From: a virus
Taxonomy: Duplodnaviria > Caudoviricetes
Virus record (IMG/VR): IMGVR_UViG_3300010163_000003
Location: 1 to 64,000 of that record
Reading direction: 5' to 3' (one strand)
Length of the DNA: 64,000 bases
Position numbers and translations under genes: made by a program. Below, in pieces: positions 2,047 through 49,038 of the stretch; the stretch's first letter is position 1, and every line of letters begins with the position of its first letter. The notes under the pieces are model-generated. The model ran no database searches. It worked only from the letters and a program-made list of their open reading frames with translations, and had not been told where the DNA came from.

Positions 2047-4074
2047 ATGAGCATTCAAAGGACTGTAAGTAGGAACCCTGTTAGTGGCATTTCAAAAGCT
2101 ATTGATATGCTTGGCAGTAAAGAAGCCGCAAATCATGCGTGCGCTTATCGTATTCTTAATACAGGCATGATAAAGCTTACTGGCAAAGAAATCGTGCAAG
2201 CGGCAAAGGATTACCAGTTCATGCTGTCTCTCGGTGAAACGACCGAGTACACGATGGAGCAGGCTGTTCGCGTAGCTGAAATCGTAGGAGTTCCACAGAG
2301 CTTTATTGAGCGTGATGGTGGCCCCACTGAATTTGTCAGCAAACGCTATCGTTTCTTTGTTATGTCGGCGATAGCTGGAAGACCACATAAAGAACAGATA
2401 TCTATGGTTAAAAGTACTATGGATGAGCTAGAGTTTAGAGAAAATGGCATTTTCCTTCCGGCTGATAAGATAAGCGATTTCACCAACATCAAGAAAGCTG
2501 CAAATAGTTCTGCTGATGCTACAACCAGAGTGATAGATACTTCAGAGGACGGAATATCCCGAATGCTCATGGAACACGGGATTAACTCTGCAACACTCTT
2601 TGTTGGACAAGTAAGCTTTGATGAAACAGAACAGAATGCAATTGACGAAAAGAAACGTCGTTTGTTTACTGAAGGTTTTATCAATGAAGCTACTGGCAAA
2701 CATTATATGTTCAGTTTTCAATCTCCTTCATCGGTGCGTAAGGGTAATTTCACATTTGTTGAAGCTAATTCTTGGCGCGAAGTCGTATCTCTTTGGATAG
2801 AAATTAGTGGCTTACTCACCAAAGAAGAAATTGAAACCAAGACTCAGGAAGAGCTTCTTGATATCCTGTTGTCTAAGTCTGTTGGTCTTGCTAATGAAGA
2901 GCATGAAGTTGTAATTGCTAAATTGCTTGCAAGGCTTTCTACTCGCGGCTCTAATAGTTTCAGCCTTGACCGTAGGGCTGAAACTAAAGAGCAGAAAGAA
3001 GCTCTGACTTTCGTTAAAGGCATAAATGTATTCTATCCTAAGAAGGATATGAAAGTCAAGATTACTCGCGACTACTACACGTTTGGCGATGAAGATGGCG
3101 TTCTTAAGCTCATCACTGGCAAACAGCGTACAGTAACTCCGGGCGATGGACAGATGCTTGGAAGCTATAGACTCCATGCATATATTGCATTCATTCTCAA
3201 TCTCATTTCCTATACAGACTTCAAGCGCTTCTTGAAACTCTGGGAAGAAGCAAACGAAGATGATAGAAATGTTGAGGAAGGAAGCGAACTTGAGCGCCTT
3301 ATCCTTAAGATACCATGCATATTTCAGATAAGGCATGGTTCTAAGAAGGGCATTTGTGTTAGAACTAACCTCGAAAGAGTATCCAAGTATGACGCAATCG
3401 TTCCGCCTTCTGTTCGTAAGTTTGTAGAAGGTGAGTGGAAGAACTTCCCGCTCGAAATCTGCAACTGGATTAAGAAGACTCCTGCACAGCCCACAGTTAT
3501 GCTGAATAACCAATTTATCAGTGCTCTCGATATAGAGCCTGAGAATCTGCGTAAGGTTGCGGATTACTGGTTTGACATCATGAACAAATCTCTTACGTCA
3601 GAAACCGAAGCTATGAAGTTTCATAAGATGATTCGGGCTACTGATGAAGAGGATGAGCTTGATGAAGACCTCAGCAATAGCATGGTAAGCCATTGTATAT
3701 GGGCAAACTCTAAACTCATGCTTGATCGTCAGGTATGTAACTGGAGAAAAGACCAGTATACCAAAATAATTAACAACATGAGTATCGGACGTATAGGTGT
3801 ACCAGGAATCTATAGCTATATGGTATGTGACCCGCATGCGTTAGTAAACTTCTATCTTGAACTCAAAGACGAAGACAAGATGGAAGAACTTAAAGCTGGC
3901 GAGTACTACTATTGCGGTAAAGATAACTGCACAGCAGCCTTGTTTCGCTCTCCGCTAATTCATCCATTTGAAGTACAAAAAGTAACGTTGAAGTATCTCA
4001 GGGCATTCTTTGGCATTCAAGGCGCTATCATTTTTAACGTACATGATGGCAAGTGGGATGCAATGGGAGGAGCT
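2047..4074 (+). CDS. Single-subunit YonO-like (two-barrel, RdRP-related) DNA-dependent RNA polymerase, exon 1
   Basis: LFRSP motif; ends ...MGGA, and joined to exon 2 gives the catalytic GADFDGD; spliced product about 1252 aa. Confidence 0.8.
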
Positions 4075-4423
4075 AAGTAATATTGGCCCCATCAACAGTA
4101 ATGTTGTCCTGACCCAATAAACAGGAATTACTCCGTGAACCTAGAAATCTAGGGTGTGTAGTGTAAACTATGCTAACAGGGAAAGCTAAAAATGTATAAA
4201 TTCATGCTAACCTCTGTGCCAAGCTCTGTAAAGAGAAGGTGCATCGACTAACTGAAAGTACTTTGTTATTCGAGAAATACGATAGCACAGTCTTTCGAGA
4301 CCTATAAGGTGAAACTCCTTATGGGGTAGCGCGGAGCTTCTGCATATGGTAACAGTATGCAGAATGAAGATATAGTCAGATGAGTGAAGAGAAATCTGCG
4401 TTGCAAAAGCAATACACTCATTG
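4075..4423 (+). ncRNA. Group I intron (349 nt, no ORF) in RNA polymerase gene
   Basis: Exon ends in U (gct), intron ends in G; R element catcgacta 4242-4250; S element aagatatagtc 4367-4377; removal restores the frame. Confidence 0.88.
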
Positions 4424-6154
4424 GATTTTGACGGCGATATTTGTGCGATTGTACCAGAAGATACCGATATTGGTGCATTAATAGTGAATGCCGTTCGTGA
4501 TATTCCTTATGATATCTGGGAAGAAGCTCAAGTTGCTAAGAAAGTTAAATTCACTTATGACATGAAAGCATTGATTGAGCATCTCGTAAAGAACGCTAAA
4601 GTTGACCGTACTGGGCCTATAACTAATCATGCTATGAGGTCTAGCGAGATATCTAATCATTTTACTCAGATAGCTCGTACTTGCAGGAGAAACGGTATTG
4701 ATAATGTGTTCTTTAAAGAGCCTTGGTCATTCCCAGAAGTAGACGAGAAGTATGGCTGGTATGGTGATAAGTATCGCGGTCTTCTTTGGAAAGATAATAC
4801 CGGGAAACAGTTTATGACTGTACGTGGTATTGCAAAATGCAAGAAAGTAGGGGCTTTGTGGGTATGGGATAAAGGACCAGAAGCTTTTGTTGGCTGGAAA
4901 TCTGTCACGGAGATAGAAGAGGAAGCCAAAAAGTATATGGATAAAGTTAAAGTTCTTCGTCTGCTTCAAGGCCGTGAGATTGATGGAGCTAAGACTGGTG
5001 TATATGCCGAAGGGCCAGAAGGTCGGAATGACTTTACTGACGAAGTAAAAGTCATAACAACTCCGCATCAGATGCTTGCTCGTAGAGTAATCCTTAAGAA
5101 GGGCGAGTCTAAATCTGATAATCACAATTCCTTTGTTAGCTTTTCTCCCCTTGGCGACTTGTATGACTATGTACAGAGCCGTCGTCACGAGATAGAAGAT
5201 AAACTGGATAACGGCATAAACATGACACAATATCTCTTCACTTTGCTTACCAAAGATGAACTTCGCTGGTTTTACGCTAGATGGAATGTAACAAATCCTG
5301 AAACCAACGAAGTAAAAGATAAAAGCCTGCTTGAGATTATCGAAGACCACAAGAAAGTATATTCTCAAGCATGGGCTAATGCTCGTGAGCTTCCTGATGA
5401 AGACCGTATGACATTCGGGAAGAAGATTAAGGAAGAAGAGCACGAATGGTTGTTGAGCCTTACAAACTATACGAATACAACCAACAATAATCTTCCTCTT
5501 ACAGTAATTGCTACGGCTGCATATATAGTAGCTTATGACAAGAAGAATAACCAGAACACAGGTTTAGGTTATGGCTGGATTCTCGCCTCCACACTTCTTG
5601 ATGTATTTGCTCGTGGCAATAACAAGCGCCGTCTCGTAAGGCTTCCTCATAAGAACGTAGAATCTGCTGAAATCAAAGATGGCTGGTTGTACGTGAATGA
5701 GATGAAGCACATGAAAGTCAATAGCGTTGAAGGCCCAGTGGATGTAATCAATGTTAGTGGACAGAACTGTGCTATGCTTCAAAAGAAAGTAGATAATGCG
5801 GCTAGCACGGCTCCGTTTGTATTCCCAGGCGCAATAGACGCTAACGTTCTTTACAGTATAACCGCAAGCGGATTGGCTTATACTCAAGCGGAGAATGCGG
5901 TTAACTGGATTGATCTTGTGAGAGCCAATGGGGGTTACTTTGATATCATCATGAATAGCCAAAAACGTGTAGTTATGGTTATCAATGGTGAAGAAATTGG
6001 ATTCCCGATATTCAATTGTTCTCCCCTTCAGTCTCTGCACATGCTCAACAAGCGGGTTAAAGTTATGAATCTTGATAACCCGATTGATGATAAACTTGTT
6101 GCGTCTACCAAGACTGGTAAGAGCGTCAAAGACATCTGGGTTGCAATAGCGTAA
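4424..6154 (+). CDS. YonO-like RNA polymerase, exon 2
   Basis: Begins DFDGDICAIV; later EIDGAKTG motif of the RdRP/YonO family. Confidence 0.8.
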   Translation, partial: DFDGDICAIVPEDTDIGALIVNAVRDIPYDIWEEAQVAKKVKFTYDMKALIEHLVKNAKVDRTGPITNHAMRSSEISNHFTQIARTCRRNGIDNVFFKEPWSFPEVDEKYGWYGDKYRGLLWKDNTGKQFMTVRGIAKCKKVGALWVWDKGPEAFVGWKSVTEIEEEAKKYMDKVKVLRLLQGREIDGAKTGVYAEGPEGRNDFTDEVKVITTPHQMLARRVILKKGESKSDNHNSFVSFSPLGDLYDYVQSRRHEIEDKLDNGINMTQYLFTLLTKDELRWFYARWNVTNPETNEVKDKSLLEIIEDHKKVYSQAWANARELPDEDRMTFGKKIKEEEHEWLLSLTNYTNTTNNNLPLTVIATAAYIVAYDKKNNQNTGLGYGWILASTLLDVFARGNNKRRLVRLPHKNVESAEIKDGWLYVNEMKHMKVNSVEGPVDVINVSGQNCAMLQKKVDNAASTAPFVFPGAIDANVLYSITASGLAYTQAENAVNWIDLVRANGGYFDIIMNSQKRVVMVINGEEIGFPIFNCSPLQSLHMLNKRVKVMNLDNPIDDKLVASTKTGKSVKDIWVAIA

Positions 6155-17862: not shown

Positions 17863-18000
17863 GTCGGTATAGCTTAAGGTAAAGCAATTGTTTATTTTTA
17901 AACAATATTGAAAGGATAATAATTCCAAAGGGCTTTCATATGTTTAACTTCATTGTATAATAAACAATGTCTAACAGTTCAATTCTGTTTACCGACACCA
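17863..18000 (+). ncRNA. tRNA-like RNA with 62-nt insertion in the anticodon loop
   Basis: Perfect acceptor gtcggta/taccgac+ACCA, D-arm, 10-bp anticodon stem, T-arm aacag-ttcaatt-ctgtt. Confidence 0.65.
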
Positions 18001-20950: not shown

Positions 20951-21490
20951 ATGGCTAGTTATCCAGGCGCACGTAGAATATGGAATAAACATAGCGAATT
21001 CGCTGGCAAAGCTGATGCTGACAAGGTTCAAAAAGAAATTGACCTTATTGCATCTCAAGACCCTAACGGCAAATGTACCGATGAAGGATTGGTAGACTAT
21101 GCAAGAAACAATCCTAACAGCGAATCTCATAACTGCTTCGAGTGGAACGACACAACTGCGGCAGAAAAATACAGATTACATCAAGCTGCTCGTATTAAAG
21201 TTTCCATCATAACTGTATACGACAAAACTGACAAAGATACTGAAAGCAGCGTCAATCAAAATACGAGCGTCCCAATTCAGGTAGTTACTAACCATGCTTT
21301 AAAGACACCAGGAGATGGGCATAAGAATATTGAATTCATTCTTCAGGACAAGAATGATTCAAAAGTTCTTGACGAACAAATGAAGCAAGCATGCATTCAG
21401 TTCATGGATAATTTTGAACGTAGATGGTGTCTTGCCCCATCATTCAATCAAGTATTCCCCAAACTACAAGCATTCGTAAACTCGTTATAA
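20951..21490 (+). CDS. Conserved phage protein (H.CFEW.D..AAEKYRLHQA motif), candidate accessory of the Cas7-like locus
   Basis: gaggag RBS; motif recognised by eye; sits immediately upstream of the pentamer array. Confidence 0.65.
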   Translation: MASYPGARRIWNKHSEFAGKADADKVQKEIDLIASQDPNGKCTDEGLVDYARNNPNSESHNCFEWNDTTAAEKYRLHQAARIKVSIITVYDKTDKDTESSVNQNTSVPIQVVTNHALKTPGDGHKNIEFILQDKNDSKVLDEQMKQACIQFMDNFERRWCLAPSFNQVFPKLQAFVNSL

Positions 21491-21530
21491 AAGTATGGGG
21501 CGCTAACGCGCCCCTACTGAATTATAAATT

Positions 21531-21791
21531 ACATGCCAAAATAGGCAATCTTAAATTATCATAGCACACGCTAACATATTATAATATAATACAAAAAATT
21601 AAATCAATAAGCGAGGTCATGACCTCAATACACCAAATGTTACGATAATAAGATTTCAACATAAACTACTTTATTGTAATTTATAATATTGATGTTCGTG
21701 GCTTCGCTTATTGATTTAATAATCAATAAATTTAGATCAAACTATCCTAAATGAAGCAAAAATATGATATTATATTATACCGTAAAATAGA
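21531..21791 (+). repeat. Pentamer (NYA-NN) array part 1: three modules (21531-21595, 21625-21685, 21732-21791), module 2 enclosed by a long stem
   Basis: A at every 5th base, e.g. tta ga|tca aa|cta tc|cta aa|tga ag|caa aa|ata tg|ata tt|ata tt|ata cc|gta aa|ata ga; stem 21598-21630/21687-21720 with G-U pairs. Confidence 0.85.
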
Positions 21792-21801
21792 GGATTTAAA
21801 T

Positions 21802-22011
21802 ATGGATGAAAACGAAAATGTAACTATTTGTTGTGATTGTCAATATTGTTGCGACAAATATAGTTTCCCATTACCAAATGATATACCCGAATTTAACGGA
21901 AATAATTTTCTTCTTAAAGCATATTGTTGTTGTATGGAAGATTGTGAGCTATACGGCAAACGTATTGATATGCTTGGGATTACTTCCTGTGAATATTTTA
22001 AAGAATTATAG
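21802..22011 (+). CDS. Small Cys-rich hypothetical protein inside the array
   Basis: gagg RBS before ATG 21802; CCDC.YCC, CCC..DC. Confidence 0.55.
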   Translation: MDENENVTICCDCQYCCDKYSFPLPNDIPEFNGNNFLLKAYCCCMEDCELYGKRIDMLGITSCEYFKEL

Positions 22012-22024
22012 GAGAGATAGTTAG

Positions 22025-22561
22025 TTGATATATAAAACAACAGTTTATATTCCAAGTGGAACGATTGAGAGAGTAAACAGTTTACTTTGTGCTCTTTCTT
22101 TTAAAGATCTTTCTGAAAAAGAAATTAGCAAATATAAGTTTAGAACCAACTCATGTGAAACTATTTTTAATGTGAAGTTCGAAGATAATAGCACATTAAC
22201 ATATGAATTATGTTCTGGCGATTCTAATTATTATGACAATGTTGTATGGAGAAGCGCTGATGGGATTGAAGAAACAATAGAATGTTCTTTCAGATTATTC
22301 AATGAGATAGAAATTGAAATCAATTCAAACAAATATATTGTTAATCTCATAGAAAATCCTCCTGAACATGGCAAAAAAAGATTAAACGTTACTGTGAATT
22401 GTTTAGCTACTTATAATAGTAGCATACTCGTTCCATATACTATGAATCTTGAAGAAGCTATACAATATGCTGAAAAACATATTGATGATATACCCCTTGG
22501 TTTATTGGAATATGTGTCAGACAGTGACAGTATCGATGAAGAAAATTGCAGTTTCGATTAA
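22025..22561 (+). CDS. Hypothetical protein inside the array
   Basis: ggag RBS, TTG start, 178 aa. Confidence 0.55.
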   Translation: MIYKTTVYIPSGTIERVNSLLCALSFKDLSEKEISKYKFRTNSCETIFNVKFEDNSTLTYELCSGDSNYYDNVVWRSADGIEETIECSFRLFNEIEIEINSNKYIVNLIENPPEHGKKRLNVTVNCLATYNSSILVPYTMNLEEAIQYAEKHIDDIPLGLLEYVSDSDSIDEENCSFD

Positions 22562-22607
22562 TAAGCTTTAGCTAGCTTTTAGCTAATTTTCTAGCTAAAA
22601 GCTAGCT

Positions 22608-23680
22608 TTATAGCTTCAAATATTGACTTAAGTATTGTAAGTCGATAAACGAGATTTAGTCTCAATACATGCTATACTATCATAATGTATAACACTATAT
22701 CACACGACAATATATAATATCTTAAGTCAATATTTGAAGCTATAAGTTTCAAAACAGGCCAAAATAGTCTAGCTTAGAATACTATCAGCGTACTATAGGA
22801 TATATTAAAACATTTTATGGTCTCAAATATTGACTTTAAGTCAATGACATCCTATTACAACCCATCTCAACTTAGCTTATAATAGCATAAAATAATATAT
22901 AGTAATATTATTACTTAAAGTCAATATTTGAGACCATAAAGGTCAGCAGATTACAAACTAAGCTTAATTTAGGGTAAATTAAAGTAGGACAATTTTAGCA
23001 TATGCTAGGATATTTTACTTTATGGTTTCAAATATTAGCTTTAAGCTAAAATACAAGCTATGCAATCCTAAAATAAATTAGCACAATCTATGCTATTATA
23101 TGACACTATAAAATATTTAGCTTAAGTCAATATTTGAAACCATAAATTTTTATGGTTTAAGACAAAACGCCATAAAATACGATAGCACATGTAATCATAT
23201 GCAACCATAGGACATGCTATCATAAGATATTTTACTTTATGGTTTCAAATATTGACTTAAGTTAATAACAGAAAAGAGATGTATAATAATGACTATATTA
23301 CTGACTTATCTGGTTTTTGTAATAAAAAATTCCCAGTTGAAAAACATTTTTATGTTAAAACTAATATTTAAGGTCATAAACCTTATCAGAATGTAATGTA
23401 ATCTATCGCATCTCATGACAACATATGGCACCTTAACATAATATAAAACAGTTTATGATCTTAAATATTAGTTTTAGCTAATAATAACAAACAAAAATAC
23501 TATATGATAAAACACTTCATTATAATTTAGACCAAAGTAAAAATAATACAAAGTATTTTATATGTAGACACCGCTACTTTTACAAAAGTAGCGGTGTGTG
23601 CTTATAAAAGCAAGCTTAAAGTAGGTCATTTAAAAATAGTTTAGCACATCCCACCTTAAGCTAATATAGCACATAATATC
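22608..23680 (+). repeat. Pentamer (NYA-NN) array part 2: nine modules separated by alternating-orientation ~26-bp repeats
   Basis: Modules 22662-22721, 22749-22814, 22842-22906, 22943-23019, 23053-23117, 23172-23236, 23383-23452, 23487-23562, 23611-23680; repeat consensus tttatggtYtcaaatattgacttaag. Confidence 0.9.
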
Positions 23681-23714
23681 ATGATATTTTAATTATTATT
23701 TGGAGGAATTAAAA

Positions 23715-24446
23715 ATGGCCACAAAAACTAAAGACGAAAACAACACTCCTATTGAAGAAAAGCTTACTCCGGGCACAGTTATCAAAATGAAACCCTTTGT
23801 TAAGGAACGACTTCAGGTAACTATTTGCAGCGATGACCACTGCGATCTTATTTTGAATAAGATGACACAAGAAGCTATTGAAGAAATCAAAAGCACACAA
23901 ACTAAGACGGCTAAGGGCACAAAGAAAGCGGTCAATATGTGGCAAAGGCTTATTGAGGGCCTGCATTGGATGGACAAGTATACTGGCCCGTATGTAGATG
24001 ATAAAGGCAAAATTCTGCATACAGAAGAAGCATACTATGACCTACTTAAAACCAATCGTATCGGTTACGATGCAAGTGGCATCAAGAAGGGTCTCTGCGA
24101 TGCGGCTGTTCGTGTACTTGGCGAATCTAAATCTACCATTATCAATGCCAATCTTCAGGTTATTCCTGAGAAGAGAAATCTCGTTCAGATTGAATTCAAC
24201 GAGAGTGATATTGATGAATCCGTAATCACTAACTGGAAAGGCTCTGCTTTCATTACCTATCGTACTATCCTGCGCGGATGGTCTAGTACATTTGCTGTAG
24301 AATATCTGCCAGATAATTTGTCTCGTGATCAGGTTATCGAGATGTTCCAGGCGATGGGATTTAGCGGCGGTCTTGGCGCACATCGTGTTGGGCTTAAAGG
24401 CGGCACTCATGGTAAATTCCATGTAGATAAGGTAATGCAACTCTAA
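23715..24446 (+). CDS. Stand-alone Cas7/RAMP-like RNA-binding protein (Vipr-like candidate), 243 aa
   Basis: ggagg RBS; internal IGYDASGIKKGLCDAA helix, YR..L.GW...F.VEY strand, C-terminal Gly-rich loop GFSGGLGAHR..LKGGTHGKFHV. Confidence 0.7.
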   Translation: MATKTKDENNTPIEEKLTPGTVIKMKPFVKERLQVTICSDDHCDLILNKMTQEAIEEIKSTQTKTAKGTKKAVNMWQRLIEGLHWMDKYTGPYVDDKGKILHTEEAYYDLLKTNRIGYDASGIKKGLCDAAVRVLGESKSTIINANLQVIPEKRNLVQIEFNESDIDESVITNWKGSAFITYRTILRGWSSTFAVEYLPDNLSRDQVIEMFQAMGFSGGLGAHRVGLKGGTHGKFHVDKVMQL

Positions 24447-43147: not shown

Positions 43148-44335
43148 ATGATTGAATATGCTCAACTTCATTGTCATACTAAATATTCTATACAAGATGG
43201 AATGCCATCTCATAAAGATTATGTAGATGCCATTTATAATGCTAATGAAAAGAGTGATAAATATAAATGCGTTGGCTTTGCAGCTACGGATCATGGTGTT
43301 ATCTACGGACTAGCTCAGCAGTATAACGCATGTAATAACCCCGATCATAAAGAACGAATAACTAAAGCTATCTATGGATGTGAAGTATATCACTGTATAG
43401 ATATAAATAATAATCCAAATAAAGATAGGTTCCATCTCGTTCTTCTTGCAAAAAATCAAAAAGGATTAACCAATCTATATCAGATAGTTTCTCATGCAGG
43501 TATGCATCCTATACATGGTAGGTCAAAAGATTTTCCAACTACTGACTTAGAATATATGACTATGCATGGTGAAGGAATCATAGCTCTTACTGCCTGCCTA
43601 GGTGGATTGATACCAAAGTTAATTCAAGCAGGAGATATAACAAAAGCAGAAGGATTTCTTCAATGTATGATGCATATATTTGATGAGGTTTGCTTAGAAG
43701 TACAGCCTCATGATATGCCTGAGCAACTTATGGTTAATCAAACTTTGGTACAGCTATCTAAAAAATATAATCTGAAGTTAGTAATGACTTCTGATAGTCA
43801 CTATATACATGCAAGTGACTCACAGTATCATGACATATTAAAGAACATGTGTCATCAAAAGCCATTCAGTACAAGCAATCATATGTTCTTAGCAGAAGAA
43901 ATGGAACAGTACTGTATTAAAAATAATATTCCATTGGAATGTATATCTAATACTGGATTGATTGCTAAGGAATGTAACGTTGACCCTAAACCTAAAGATA
44001 ATAGAGGATTATTACCTGTATATAAATGTCCTCCAGGGTTTACAGAAGAGACTCTTCTTCGTAAAGTAGCATATGAAGGGCTACAAGAAAAAATGATTAA
44101 GAACAACGTGAGCAATCCCGTAAAATATTTTAAGCAAATGAACTATGAACTTGAAGTAATATGTGGACAAGGATTTGCTAGTTATTTCTTAATCTTATGG
44201 GATTGGTTTCAATGGTGTAGGCAACAAGGCATATTATTAGGCCCAGGACGTGGTAGTGCTGCTGGTAGTATAGTGTCTTATGCATTGAATCTTACGAAAG
44301 TAGACCCAATAAAGAATGAGTTTTATTTTGAGCGT
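43148..44335 (+). CDS. dnaE: DNA polymerase III alpha, exon 1 (PHP domain to FER)
   Basis: LHCHTKYS..DG, TDHG, GPGRGSAAGS. Confidence 0.92.
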
Positions 44336-46803: not shown

Positions 46804-49038
46804 ACAGATGTTCCTCGTGACCGTAGGGCGGAAGCCATTGAATATCTAAAAACTAAGTATGGCGAGGCGAACGTTAGTCAAATAGTAACCTTTGGTGAGT
46901 ATAAAATAAAGAATACTATCAAAGCTATTATGTCTATGCTTGGCTGTAGCTTTCAGGAATCTAATGAAGTTACTAAAAACATACCAGACATTGTAGATGG
47001 CAATGCAGTAACTTATGAACTCATAGAAGATGTAGCATTACATCCTGATAAAGATAAGTATGCTACTATGTCTGAAAGTGATAAAAACAGTCTTGGTAAG
47101 ATATATAATAAACTCAAAGAACTATTTCAAAAGTATCCATTAATATATAGTGGCGTTAAAAATGTTTGTGGATGTCTAGCTAGCACGGGTATTCATGCTG
47201 GTGGTGTAATTATATCCAGCAAACCAATAAATGAAAACGCTGCTATTATTGATGGAGGAGATACAGCGGTACTTCCATTAGTACAGGTAGAGATGACTGA
47301 TTTGGATTTCTTTGGTCTTCTCAAATATGATCTTCTTGGTTTAAAGACTCTTGATGTCATTAAGAAAACCATGGAACTTACTGGTCTTGATTATGACTGG
47401 TATGATTCTGAAGACTTTAGTGATTCTGCTGTATATGATATGTTAAGGAATGGAGAGACTACAGATGTCTTTCAACTCTCTACTTTCACTCCTACCAGTA
47501 TGCTGGTGGATTTTAACGTGCGTGATATTGATGGTATCTGTGCAGTTAATGCCGGAAACAGACCCGGTCCGCTTGAAAAGGATAAGACTAGCGGTAAATC
47601 TATGGTTGACACTCTCGCTGAGCGTACTAGGGTGGGTACTTTTGAAGGATTTCATCCAGATATTGATCCAGTACTTGAGAAGACTATGGGATGTGTCTGG
47701 TATCAAGAACATGTTATTAAGATTGGTCAGATAATGGCTGGATATAATCTCGGTGATGCTGATAGTCGTATTCGTAAAGTATTAGGTAAGAAATTAAAGA
47801 AAAAGATACCTGAAATACGTAATGAATTTATTTATGGTAAAACATCTGTGTATGATGAAGACCATAATGTAATTGGCATTGGTGATTCTCCTTCACCTTA
47901 TTGTGAAGGAAGTCTTGCTAGAGGATATAGCTTAGAACTTTCTGAAAAGATATTTGATATCATGGAAGCCTTCGCTAAGTATTCTTTTAATAGATCCCAT
48001 TCATTTTGTTATGGAGTGTTAGCATATAAGACTGCATGGCTGTCTCTTCATTATCCAGCAGAATTTGCAGTAGCAAACTGTACTATCAATGGAGAAACAG
48101 AAGCTATCACTTCTACTCTTGCTCTTGCAAAACGTCGTAAGATACCTATTCTTCCACCTGATATAAATCATTCACAGATAGGATTCAGCCTTGATAATGG
48201 AGCTATCAGATACGGACTTAAAGCCATTAAAGGTATTGGTAGTTCTGTATTGAACTTCATTGAAAGATATAAAACATTGGACACAGTACCGTTTAAAGAT
48301 TTCGATGATTATTATAATAGGATTCATGACGTAAATAATCCTGTTGTAATACAGTTAATAAATGAAATCAGACAACGTACTGGTAAACAAAGTCCTAATC
48401 CTATGAAGAAGGATGTCGAATTAGCTCTCATATTGTCTGGAGCATTTGATTATTGTGAAAGCAATAGGTACGCTTTGCTTTATCATTATATTGCAGACAT
48501 TCGTAAAGAAAAATCTTGCAAGGTAATGGGCGAAGATATTGATGTTATTGATAAAGATAAATTATCTAAGCAATACAAACGTAAAGTTAAACTTGCTTTA
48601 GAGAAACATTATATGGGTAGTTATATATCTGAACATCCTCTTGACCCATTCCCCTATACTGATTTCGATTCTTGTAAAGAGAATGAGACAATTAAGACTT
48701 CTGGTATTGTTATCAGTGTTTCTTTAAAGCAAACAAAGAAAGGCAGTTCGTTTATATCAATGAGAATTAAGTCTAAAGATGATATAGAAAGAACTGTTAA
48801 TGTGTTTAATGAAAAACAGATTGATTCCATTAAACAAAATGTAAAGAAGAACTCTATTGTGATTGTAACTGGTAAAGTAAGCAAAAAATTTAATAATATT
48901 AATGCTTCTTCTGTGTCGCCTGTCGCATTTAAGAAACAGACTATTGATACAGAACAGCTTGATATCAATGTACAAGATACCAAGCAAGCTCCAGTTATAC
49001 CTCCAGTAGAATCTGTAGGATATGGCAGCATCTTCTGA
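46804..49038 (+). CDS. dnaE: DNA polymerase III alpha, exon 3
   Basis: GIHAGGV, LLKYDLLGL, YQE, YSFNRSH, IRYGL.AIKGIG; spliced DnaE about 1153 aa. Confidence 0.92.
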   Translation, partial: TDVPRDRRAEAIEYLKTKYGEANVSQIVTFGEYKIKNTIKAIMSMLGCSFQESNEVTKNIPDIVDGNAVTYELIEDVALHPDKDKYATMSESDKNSLGKIYNKLKELFQKYPLIYSGVKNVCGCLASTGIHAGGVIISSKPINENAAIIDGGDTAVLPLVQVEMTDLDFFGLLKYDLLGLKTLDVIKKTMELTGLDYDWYDSEDFSDSAVYDMLRNGETTDVFQLSTFTPTSMLVDFNVRDIDGICAVNAGNRPGPLEKDKTSGKSMVDTLAERTRVGTFEGFHPDIDPVLEKTMGCVWYQEHVIKIGQIMAGYNLGDADSRIRKVLGKKLKKKIPEIRNEFIYGKTSVYDEDHNVIGIGDSPSPYCEGSLARGYSLELSEKIFDIMEAFAKYSFNRSHSFCYGVLAYKTAWLSLHYPAEFAVANCTINGETEAITSTLALAKRRKIPILPPDINHSQIGFSLDNGAIRYGLKAIKGIGSSVLNFIERYKTLDTVPFKDFDDYYNRIHDVNNPVVIQLINEIRQRTGKQSPNPMKKDVELALILSGAFDYCESNRYALLYHYIADIRKEKSCKVMGEDIDVIDKDKLSKQYKRKVKLALEKHYMGSYISEHPLDPFPYTDFDSCKENETIKTSGIVISVSLKQTKKGSSFISMRIKSKDDIERTVNVFNEKQIDSIKQNVKKNSIVIVTGKVSKKFNNINASSVSPVAFKKQTIDTEQLDINVQDTKQAPVIPPVESVGYGSIF

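What the first reader, a model, noticed from the sequence alone, without database searches (positions are those of the whole stretch)
22749..22814. Module 5 decodes to DNA polymerase A motif B (KGKVAELALGY) when NN pairs are read as codon positions 1-2
Seen: tca AA|aca GG|cca AA|ata GT|cta GC|tta GA|ata CT|(a)|tca GC|gta CT|ata GG|ata TA. The variable pairs AA GG AA GT GC GA CT GC CT GG TA, each followed by a skipped base, are compatible with K-G-K-V-A-E-L-A-L-G-Y. Established (recalled family motif): QKGK(I/V)AELALGY is motif B of family-A DNA polymerases of Firmicutes temperate phages. The polymerase in this window is family C (DnaE), so the match is not to its own replicase here. Inference: the guide targets a competitor phage's or prophage's essential gene while ignoring the wobble position, making it immune to synonymous escape. 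The match is in sense orientation, so pairing would be with the template DNA strand. One 1-nt slip had to be allowed.
Basis: partly seen in the sequence, partly recalled or inferred. Interest (0 to 1): 0.95.

Follow-up and report, generated by a model that had tools for sequence, protein, structure and literature searches.

The report
VIPR guide RNA against rival polymerases
This stretch is one guide RNA in the array of a phage-borne VIPR system (a CRISPR-like DNA silencer first described in 2026 preprints), and its two-letters-in-five code spells the catalytic motif B of the DNA polymerase of rival temperate phages while skipping every wobble base: real and striking, but a new variant of a published kind.

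Summary
At 22749-22804 eleven nYA-NN pentamers (one 4-base linker) carry NN = AA GG AA GT GC GA CT GC CT GG TA. Every hit lies in frame as KGKVAELALGY in ~665-aa family-A polymerases, mostly of Bacillota prophages. Two shuffled strings hit nothing.

Three more modules match the same phages:
- M10: polymerase motif C, antisense, 26/26 bases.
- M7: the Enc34-type ssDNA-binding protein.
- M11: a Cro/C1-type HTH regulator.
- M9: an HNH endonuclease, tentatively.

The gene downstream (23715-24446) folds as a Cas7-type RAMP, and its family profile hits the solved SUSP1 Vipr protein (E 2e-8).

This is therefore a VIPR system (bioRxiv 10.64898/2026.04.26.720920): gapped guides, one skipped target base, wobble-aligned, aimed at competing phages.

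New here:
- a constant NYA unit instead of GGY;
- an array punctuated by long hairpins;
- the target set;
- the first linker base tracks the purine/pyrimidine class of the skipped wobble base (33 of 39 units, P about 1e-5).

The parts
22749..22804 (+). vrRNA module 5 repeat tract: 11 units nYA-NN (one 4-base linker, extra base at 22784). NN = codon positions 1-2 of KGKVAELALGY (family-A polymerase motif B), sense orientation.
22805..22841 (+). Conserved 3' flank of module 5 (candidate tail/handle), running into forward arm F2.
   Evidence: Direct-repeat family D1, four copies at 22796, 23001, 23218 and 23434.
21526..23690 (+). The whole vrRNA array: about 11 period-5 tracts. It is interrupted by two small ORFs (21751-22011, 22025-22561) that have no homologues in related loci.
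22608..22745 (+). Hairpin 1: arms 22608-22632 / 22721-22745, 100% complementary, enclosing tract M4 (22662-22720; no target found).
22814..22940 (+). Hairpin 2: arms 22814-22841 / 22913-22940, 100% complementary. Three substitutions and one indel relative to hairpin 1 are all compensated. Encloses tract M6 (22847-22906; no target found).
22943..23014 (+). vrRNA module 7: NN match AFNS(N)GNKGIACGL of the Enc34-type ssDNA-binding protein (PF10991) encoded just upstream of the target polymerase; sense orientation.
   Evidence: 25/28 bases; 10 hits at 80% or more against 0 in shuffles
23019..23146 (+). Hairpin 3 arms (23019-23041 / 23124-23146) enclosing tract M8 (23053-23117; no target found).
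23157..23226 (+). vrRNA module 9: tentative match (22-23 of 28 bases) to the N-terminal (R/K)KP(K/N)RPCSxPGCP of a ~125-aa HNH endonuclease in four target proviruses.
   Evidence: The score alone is within the range of shuffles.
23356..23476 (+). Hairpin with arms 23356-23381 / 23451-23476 (one G.U pair on the + strand, an A.C mismatch on the - strand), enclosing module 10.
23383..23447 (+). vrRNA module 10: NN are the reverse complement of codon positions 1-2 of FIVGHVHDEIIIE (polymerase motif C); antisense orientation.
   Evidence: 26/26 bases in four proviruses; 25 viral contigs for the 11-codon core
23483..23552 (+). vrRNA module 11: NN match YKKLWKLLIDKxMK at the N-terminus of ~75-aa Cro/C1-type HTH regulators (PF13443) of the same proviruses; sense orientation.
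   Evidence: 25/28 against a shuffle maximum of 21
23616..23680 (+). vrRNA module 12, directly upstream of the vipr ribosome-binding site; no target found.
21531..21595 (+). vrRNA module 1, after the terminator-like hairpin of the upstream gene; no target found.
23715..24446 (+). vipr gene: 243-aa Cas7-type RAMP with a C-terminal glycine-rich loop (phrog_4652).
20951..21490 (+). Candidate vap (accessory) gene: 179 aa, phrog_15946. Homologues sit beside vipr homologues in six other loci.
   Evidence: fold not identified

Best explanation
The stretch is the variable tract of one guide RNA (vrRNA) in a VIPR system of a 218-kb phage.

Mechanism, by analogy with the published system (inferred for this locus): the array is transcribed on the + strand with the flanking genes. 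Copies of the Vipr RAMP protein (23715-24446) coat each tract and hold the constant part of each pentamer (here n-Y-A, in place of the published G-G-Y). This presents the two variable bases. The 11 NN pairs then base-pair with double-stranded DNA, skipping every third target base.

In module 5 the NN string equals codon positions 1-2 of KGKVAELALGY, the motif-B core of the family-A DNA polymerase of temperate phages of Bacillota. The guide would therefore bind the template strand of that gene whatever the synonymous codon choice, and would block its expression. Modules 10, 7 and 11 (and probably 9) aim at the same kind of phage: polymerase motif C, the ssDNA-binding protein, a Cro/C1-type regulator and an HNH endonuclease. 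The array thus looks like a panel against resident or co-infecting rival phages.

Shown here: the repeat architecture, the target matches, the protein's fold and its homology to Vipr.
Inferred from the preprints: RNP formation, DNA binding and silencing.
For: Architecture
- The nYA-NN period-5 tracts are unique to 21527-23691, on the + strand only.

Module 5 target
- The NN string has at least 51 exact hits among viral contigs and at least 120 species among bacterial genomes. All are in frame in PolA-length ORFs, and two shuffled strings gave 0 hits.
- The target ORF is PF00476. Its nearest named phages infect Ruminococcus, Lachnospiraceae, C. innocuum, Oscillospiraceae, Streptococcus and Erysipelothrix.

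Other modules
- M10 matches 26/26, M7 25/28 and M11 25/28, at homologous conserved peptides of the same proviruses and far above shuffles.

Comparative evidence
- In a relative (L265, Vipr 64% identical) the orthologous module at 5172-5231 keeps 10 of 11 NN. Its one change (GT to AT) gives KGKIAELALGY, the other natural variant of the motif, while the linkers differ freely.

Protein
- The AF2 model has pLDDT 88.8. The top Foldseek hits are all Csm3/Cmr4/type VII Cas7 (E 5.5e-7, probability 1.0).
- The family profile hits PDB 36pp 'SUSP1 Vipr protein' at E 2.2e-8, aligning the G-rich loop.
- A scan for period-5 tracts alone recovered homologues of this protein next to such tracts in L049, L055, L103, L105, L092 and L088.

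Other checks
- No module matches the phage's own genome at 80% or above, or better than shuffles.
- The published rule and biology are described in 10.64898/2026.04.26.720920 and 10.64898/2026.04.26.720927.
Against: - No expression, processing or binding data exist for this locus.
- The constant trinucleotide is NYA, not GGY or any variant named in the text of the preprints. How this Vipr holds it is unknown.
- Six tracts (M1, M2, M4, M6, M8, M12) have no target in the five proviruses. Exact scans of the cores of M1, M6, M8 and M12 found nothing.
- The polymerase subfamilies that match M5 exactly and those that match M10 exactly differ: the M10-exact genes carry KGKIAELA(L/C)GY, 1-3 bases off M5. 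No single known phage is hit perfectly by all guides.
- The host of this phage and its resident prophages are unknown.
- M9 is no better than shuffles by score alone.
Confidence: 0.86

Rival explanations
1. The decoding is a coincidence produced by a free choice of frame, strand, slip and remembered motif.
For: One slip had to be allowed. There are about 11 modules and two orientations to choose from. Six tracts decode to nothing recognisable.
Against: About 0.01-0.1 chance hits are expected for a pattern of 22 fixed bases. Observed were at least 51 and at least 120, all in frame in one protein family, and shuffles gave 0. Three further modules hit the same phages. An orthologous module conserves the NN positions but not the linkers.
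Confidence: 0.01
2. The tracts are binding sites for a ring or filament RNA-binding protein (TRAP-like sponge, or an autoregulatory leader of the downstream gene). Only the nYA triplets matter and the NN are meaningless spacers.
For: The 3+2 architecture with about 11 repeats resembles TRAP sites. Tracts lie directly 5' of genes here (M12) and in L088.
Against: The NN are conserved between orthologous modules while the linkers drift. The NN spell conserved motifs of foreign genes. The genome has no TRAP family protein. The partner protein is a Vipr homologue.
Confidence: 0.03
3. The guides act on RNA (antisense control of rival mRNAs), not on DNA.
For: M10 is antisense to the polymerase mRNA. 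The closest solved folds are RNA-targeting type III Cas7 proteins.
Against: M5, M7 and M11 are in the sense orientation on the same transcribed strand and cannot pair with the mRNA. The characterised Vipr RNP binds dsDNA on either strand.
Confidence: 0.05
4. The guides are not a weapon. They are a means to control or exploit a resident prophage or helper: for example by holding its replication module off or tuning its lysis-lysogeny switch, or by acting as decoys that redirect another element's Vipr.
For: VIPR guides can induce a prophage when aimed at cI, and satellites carry decoy vrRNAs. M11 aims at a Cro/C1-type regulator.
Against: The locus carries its own vipr and a conserved partner gene. 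Most assigned targets are replication and packaging genes rather than switches.
Confidence: 0.05

Closest known systems
VIPR systems, type II exemplar Escherichia phage SUSP1 / Pseudomonas fulva prophage (bioRxiv 10.64898/2026.04.26.720920; structures 10.64898/2026.04.26.720927; competition 10.64898/2026.10.15.759431)
   Same: - A lone small RAMP protein next to long intergenic arrays.
- Guides made of pentamers: three constant plus two variable bases, 9-16 units.
- NN pair with the target, skipping one base that falls on the codon wobble position.
- Targets lie on either strand.
- No self-targets.
- Targets are competing phages, including sequences that code for active-site residues.
- Profile-level sequence homology to SUSP1 Vipr (E 2.2e-8).
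   Different: - The constant unit is N-Y-A (mostly ATA, TTA, ACA), not G-G-Y.
- The tracts are separated by, and partly enclosed in, 25-28-bp perfect hairpins of alternating arm orientation, rather than followed by a pseudoknotted tail.
- There are about 11 tracts in one 2.2-kb array of a 218-kb, 34% GC phage.
- The targets are the PolA / ssDNA-binding protein / HTH (and perhaps HNH) genes of Bacillota temperate phages.
- The neighbouring conserved gene (phrog_15946) has no identified fold.
Non-canonical VIPR arrays found by entropy periodicity (bioRxiv 10.64898/2026.10.21.760802): GAC/NN, CAC/NN, WGT/NN, TGH/NN
   Same: Period-5 arrays with an altered constant trinucleotide next to a Vipr-like fold. 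L088, found in my own scan, is a CAC/NN case with a phrog_4652 protein.
   Different: NYA/NN is not among the motifs named in that text (the supplementary figure could not be read). No targets are given there for such arrays.
Class 1 CRISPR-Cas backbone (Cas7/Csm3/Cmr4 on crRNA)
   Same: The protein has the RAMP fold. A protein filament on the guide interrupts base pairing periodically.
   Different: - The period is 5 with 2 paired bases, not 6 with 5 paired bases.
- The region holds no repeat-spacer array.
- No other cas gene was recognised among the ten flanking ORFs searched.
- Specificity is encoded inside the repeats themselves.
TRAP (trp RNA-binding attenuation protein) sites
   Same: About 11 triplets separated by 2-base spacers on one RNA strand.
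   Different: Here the spacers carry the information and the triplets are the constant part. The genome has no TrpBP family protein.

Membership tests
VIPR system | Vipr protein: small RAMP (RRM core, glycine-rich loop) homologous to characterised Vipr | tested here: met
   AF2 model pLDDT 88.8, pTM 0.82. Foldseek top 50 are nearly all Cas7-type RAMPs, E down to 5.5e-7. The family profile hits PDB 36pp 'SUSP1 Vipr protein' at E 2.2e-8 with the G-loop aligned.
VIPR system | vrRNA tract of about 9-16 tandem pentamers with a constant trinucleotide and hypervariable NN | tested here: met
   Tracts of 7-15 units. The third linker base is A almost always, the second is C/T, and the NN differ between tracts. 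The tracts are unique in the genome and strand-specific.
VIPR system | Canonical constant motif GGY (or the published variants NNNGG, YNNNG, NNNNG) | tested here: not met
   The constant part is N-Y-A with no G. This speaks against the canonical type only. Altered trinucleotides are reported for divergent VIPRs.
VIPR system | 1-nt skip rule: NN match the target with one skipped base, and the skipped base falls on the codon wobble position | tested here: met
   M5: 91/91 and 120/120 hits in frame. M10: 25/25 in frame. M7 and M11 are in frame at conserved peptides. Other skip lengths were not tested.
VIPR system | Targets on either DNA strand | tested here: met
   M5, M7 and M11 are sense and M10 is antisense, all with nYA on the + strand.
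VIPR system | No self-targeting at 80% NN match or above | tested here: met
   The best self matches are 64-77% and no better than shuffles.
VIPR system | Accessory vap gene next to vipr | tested here: inconclusive
   Homologues of P0004 (20951-21490) accompany vipr homologues in six loci. The fold has no clear match: Foldseek gave none, and VIA gave only weak winged-helix-like rows at Z 5.1-5.6. It could not be compared with vap1-6.
VIPR system | Conserved structured 3' tail after the tract | tested here: inconclusive
   A conserved 41-nt 3' flank occurs in four copies. It merges into long hairpin arms that are predicted to pair. No processing data exist.
VIPR system | vrRNA expressed and bound by Vipr; RNP binds dsDNA and represses transcription | not testable with these tools
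   No sequencing run could be listed. This needs sRNA-seq, pull-down, EMSA and a reporter assay.
CRISPR-Cas | Repeat-spacer array with contiguous spacers, plus further cas genes | tested here: not met
   The only repeats are the inverted arms and the pentamers. Pfam and PHROGs searches of the ten flanking ORFs gave no cas-named family.
TRAP-type attenuation | TrpBP protein and (G/U)AG triplets | tested here: not met
   PF02081 best E 0.137, inside a 2073-aa frame. The triplets are NYA.

The most novel reading that the evidence does not exclude
This is a distinct VIPR type whose code is 3+2 rather than 2+3. The protein would sequester only Y-A, and the base after each NN would face the 'skipped' target base and be read at purine/pyrimidine level, so each unit mirrors a whole codon.

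Evidence: in 39 units whose target skip base is class-constrained, the first linker base is of the matching class in 33 (expected 20.9, P about 1e-5; 28/34 without the homologous module). At four-fold sites it matches no better than chance.

Together with the hairpin-punctuated array (possibly cut by RNase III), the panel would be a broad-spectrum weapon against the PolA-type replication module shared by temperate phages across Bacillota.
Probability: 0.25. Interest if true: 0.6.

Novelty: new variant of a known kind. Interest (0 to 1): 0.45.

Why it matters
- It extends VIPR to an AT-rich jumbo phage that probably infects gut Bacillota, with a constant unit that contains no G. This shows the gapped code does not depend on the GGY motif.
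- It gives a concrete, testable natural target set: both catalytic motifs of a polymerase, its ssDNA-binding protein and a Cro/C1-type regulator. These illustrate why skipping the wobble base pays: one guide matches prophages in over a hundred bacterial species.
- The class-tracking first linker base, if real, would refine the published recognition rule and matter for reprogramming such systems.
- It does not change the field's picture, because the mechanism and its anti-phage role are already in print.

Tried and rejected
- blastn of the array and of vipr plus its neighbour against the phage collection: no match.
- The search for related loci with Vipr in viral contigs: none.
- Rfam: nothing in the array.
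- Sigma-70 promoter and terminator scan: no excess over shuffles.
- TRAP-like reading: dropped (and the target matches).
- Most hits of the period-5 scan were simple tandem repeats and were set aside.
- M10 against the loci chosen for exact M5 matches: 23/30, no better than shuffles. The two guides fit different polymerase subfamilies.
- Exact scans for the cores of M6 and M8 (viral contigs) and of M12 and M1 (metagenome contigs): 0 hits each. M1, M2, M4, M6, M8 and M12 also have no target in five whole proviruses.
- Reading all modules as codon+YA peptides: M4 contains stops, so the tracts are not a hidden coding sequence (my reading).
- Idea that the first linker base equals the actual wobble base of some particular target lineage: the maximum was 7/11, and the mean of 3.6 compares with 2.76 +/- 0.55 on permutation, so no such lineage was found.
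- Fold of the candidate vap: no Foldseek match. VIA rows are dominated by a generic helical hairpin.
- Sequencing runs: none was listed, and no RNA holder was listed.
- One metagenome scan failed on the machine and was repeated.

Full report
**The observation**

The window is the first 64 kb of a 218,431-bp IMG/VR phage record with terminal repeats and 34% GC. Runs of period-5 'YA' at 9 of 10 or better occur only between 21527 and 23691, and only on the + strand, in the whole genome. The periodicity is therefore real, local and strand-specific.

The region holds about eleven such tracts. They are separated by 25-28-nt arms of alternating orientation. Arms F1/R1 and F2/R2 are each 100% complementary, and they differ from each other by three substitutions and one indel that are all compensated. 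RNA folding places module 5 as a single strand between two long hairpins (z = -10.3). The 23356/23451 stem has a G.U pair on the + strand that would be an A.C mismatch on the - strand. In a related locus (L105) all four departures from perfect arm complementarity are G.U on the gene strand.

**The decoding claim for module 5**

All 91 are in frame as KGKVAELALGY within '..LRQKGKVAELALGYQGG..' in ORFs of 600-700 aa where complete. Of these, 51 have CTN at both leucines and so match all 22 bases.
All encode KGKVAELALGY, with a median ORF of 665 aa. Nearly all are Bacillota: Ruminococcus, Oscillospiraceae, Lachnospiraceae, Acetatifactor, Clostridium, Erysipelotrichales, Paenibacillus, Lysinibacillus and others.
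- Two random reorderings of the same eleven dinucleotides hit nothing.
- A representative target ORF is Pfam DNA_pol_A. Its nearest named phages infect Ruminococcus, Lachnospiraceae, Clostridium innocuum, Oscillospiraceae, Terrisporobacter, Streptococcus and Erysipelothrix.
- The phage's own genome has no family-A polymerase but does have a DnaE-type one.

**Other modules**
- M10 (23383-23447), read in reverse complement, gives FIVGHVHDEIIIE. Its 11-codon core hit 25 viral contigs, all at motif C of the same polymerase family. All 26 bases match in four whole proviruses that I fetched.
- M7 (22943-23014) matches AFNS(N)GNKGIACGL in the Enc34-type ssDNA-binding protein encoded just upstream of the polymerase. 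The best match is 25/28 bases, with ten hits at 80% or more against none in shuffles.
- M11 (23483-23552) matches the N-terminus YKKLWKLLIDKxMK of small Cro/C1-type HTH regulators, 25/28 against a shuffle maximum of 21.
- M9 (23157-23226) matches, at 22-23 of 28 bases, the N-terminal zinc motif of an HNH endonuclease in four proviruses. By score alone this is within the range of shuffles, so I call it tentative.
- The 4-base linkers in M5 and M7 do not shift the target register.
- M5, M7 and M11 are sense and M10 is antisense, although all carry nYA on the + strand. The target must therefore be DNA.
- No module matches the phage's own genome better than shuffles.
- M1, M2, M4, M6, M8 and M12 have no target so far.

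**Comparative evidence**

A relative on a 209,690-bp contig (L265, downstream protein 64% identical) has an orthologous module at 5172-5231. Its NN read AA GG AA AT GC GA CT GC CT GG TA GG, which is KGKIAELALGYG. The single NN change produces the other natural variant of the motif, the one found in the proviruses that M10 matches. The linker bases differ at many positions and there is no slip. The NN are thus under constraint and the linkers keep only Y-A.

**The protein partner**
- The gene at 23715-24446 (243 aa, phrog_4652, no Pfam) has 71 unnamed homologues.
- Its AlphaFold model (pLDDT 88.8, pTM 0.82) matches Cas7-type RAMPs: Csm3, Cmr4 and type VII Cas7 (Foldseek E down to 5.5e-7, probability 1.0).
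- A profile of the family hits the PDB chain named 'SUSP1 Vipr protein' (36pp) at E 2.2e-8, with the glycine-rich loop aligned.
- Independently, a scan of viral contigs for fourteen period-5 'YA' units, with no protein information, recovered non-repetitive arrays next to homologues of this protein. These were L049, L055, L103 and L105 (aCA-NN units) and L088 (CAC-NN units, phrog_4652 at E 8e-16), with weaker matches in L092 and L017.
- The upstream gene (20951-21490, phrog_15946) has homologues beside vipr homologues in six loci. It is the candidate accessory gene. Its fold found no clear relative.

**What it is**

A full-text search found that this is a published kind: VIPR, Viral Interference Programmable Repeat (bioRxiv 10.64898/2026.04.26.720920). 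As described there:
- Vipr is a small ancestral RAMP.
- vrRNAs are 9-16 YNNGG pentamers followed by a tail.
- The NN pair with dsDNA under a '1-nt skip rule', and the skipped base falls on the wobble position.
- Either strand can be targeted, and there is no PAM.
- Natural targets are competing phages and satellites, and the effect is transcriptional repression.

The companion structure paper shows a helical Vipr filament that sequesters GGY and forms an R-loop triplex. A later preprint shows a guide on active-site-coding sequence working in vivo. Another reports divergent arrays with GAC, CAC, WGT or TGH in place of GGY.

Earlier notes of this scan record VIPR systems on other genomes too. 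I reached the literature before reading those notes.

**What is particular here**
- The constant unit N-Y-A contains no G and is not named in the texts I could read.
- The array is punctuated by long perfect hairpins. Some of them enclose further tracts in their loops. The published architectures are tails, staggered arrays or hammerhead-interspersed arrays.
- 'Polymerase' does not occur in the main text of two of the VIPR preprints searched for the word.
- The first linker base is not free. In 39 units whose target skip base is at least 90% purine or at least 90% pyrimidine among my local hits, the linker base is of the matching class in 33. The expectation is 20.9 (simulation P about 1e-5; 28/34, P about 1.5e-4 without the module homologous to M5). 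At four-fold sites it matches the real base no better than chance. Each unit thus reads like a whole codon at class level (AAa, GAa, TAt). Either the third base is weakly or sterically read, or it is a trace of how guides arise. This test was post hoc and rests on few independent guides.

**Limits**
- Nothing here shows expression, processing, RNP formation or silencing for this locus, and no sequencing run could be listed.
- The phage's host is unknown. The targets suggest a gut member of Bacillota.
- No single known phage is matched perfectly by all assigned guides.

**Verdict**

This is a new variant of a known kind, of moderate interest.

Noticed in passing
window 21526-23690; L265:4989-5927: The first linker base after each NN follows the purine/pyrimidine class of the target's skipped (wobble) base in 33 of 39 class-constrained units (expected 20.9). 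At four-fold sites there is no excess identity.
   Followed up: partly
window 44054-44335 and 46807-47340: The DnaE-type polymerase (PF07733) is split between two open frames (440 and 746 aa) about 2.4 kb apart. This suggests an intervening intron, intein or homing-endonuclease insertion.
   Followed up: no
window 4065-4401; 17863-17997: Rfam finds a group I intron at 4065-4401. It also finds a tRNA match spanning 135 nt at 17863-17997, too long for a plain tRNA and so probably intron-containing. ARAGORN did not call the latter.
   Followed up: no
L088:11456-12990: In a GC-rich phage, CAC-NN period-5 tracts of about 20-25 units lie directly 5' of the start codons of three successive genes. One of these genes is a phrog_4652 (Vipr-family) protein, and helicase and methyltransferase genes lie upstream.
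   Followed up: partly
L105:1080-1230; L049:3030-3800; L103:8990-9522: Vipr homologues at 20-30% identity sit beside arrays with aCA-NN units. The hairpin arms there depart from perfect complementarity only by G.U pairs on the gene strand. The sub-string 'cataacacgac' recurs in several tracts.
   Followed up: partly
L265:5440-5500: A module of the relative's array matches, in antisense, the peptide NNT(I/V)IHECVHW in three of the target proviruses at 19-20 of 22 bases. The gene was not identified.
   Followed up: partly
window 21751-22011 and 22025-22561: Two small ORFs sit inside the array: an 86-aa protein rich in Cys clusters and a 178-aa acidic protein. Neither has a Pfam or PHROG family, and neither has a homologue in the related VIPR loci examined.
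   Followed up: partly
window 23556-23609: A GC-rich 26-nt inverted repeat with a 2-nt loop lies between module 11 and module 12 and looks like a terminator on either strand. It may separate the main array from the vrRNA just upstream of vipr.
   Followed up: no
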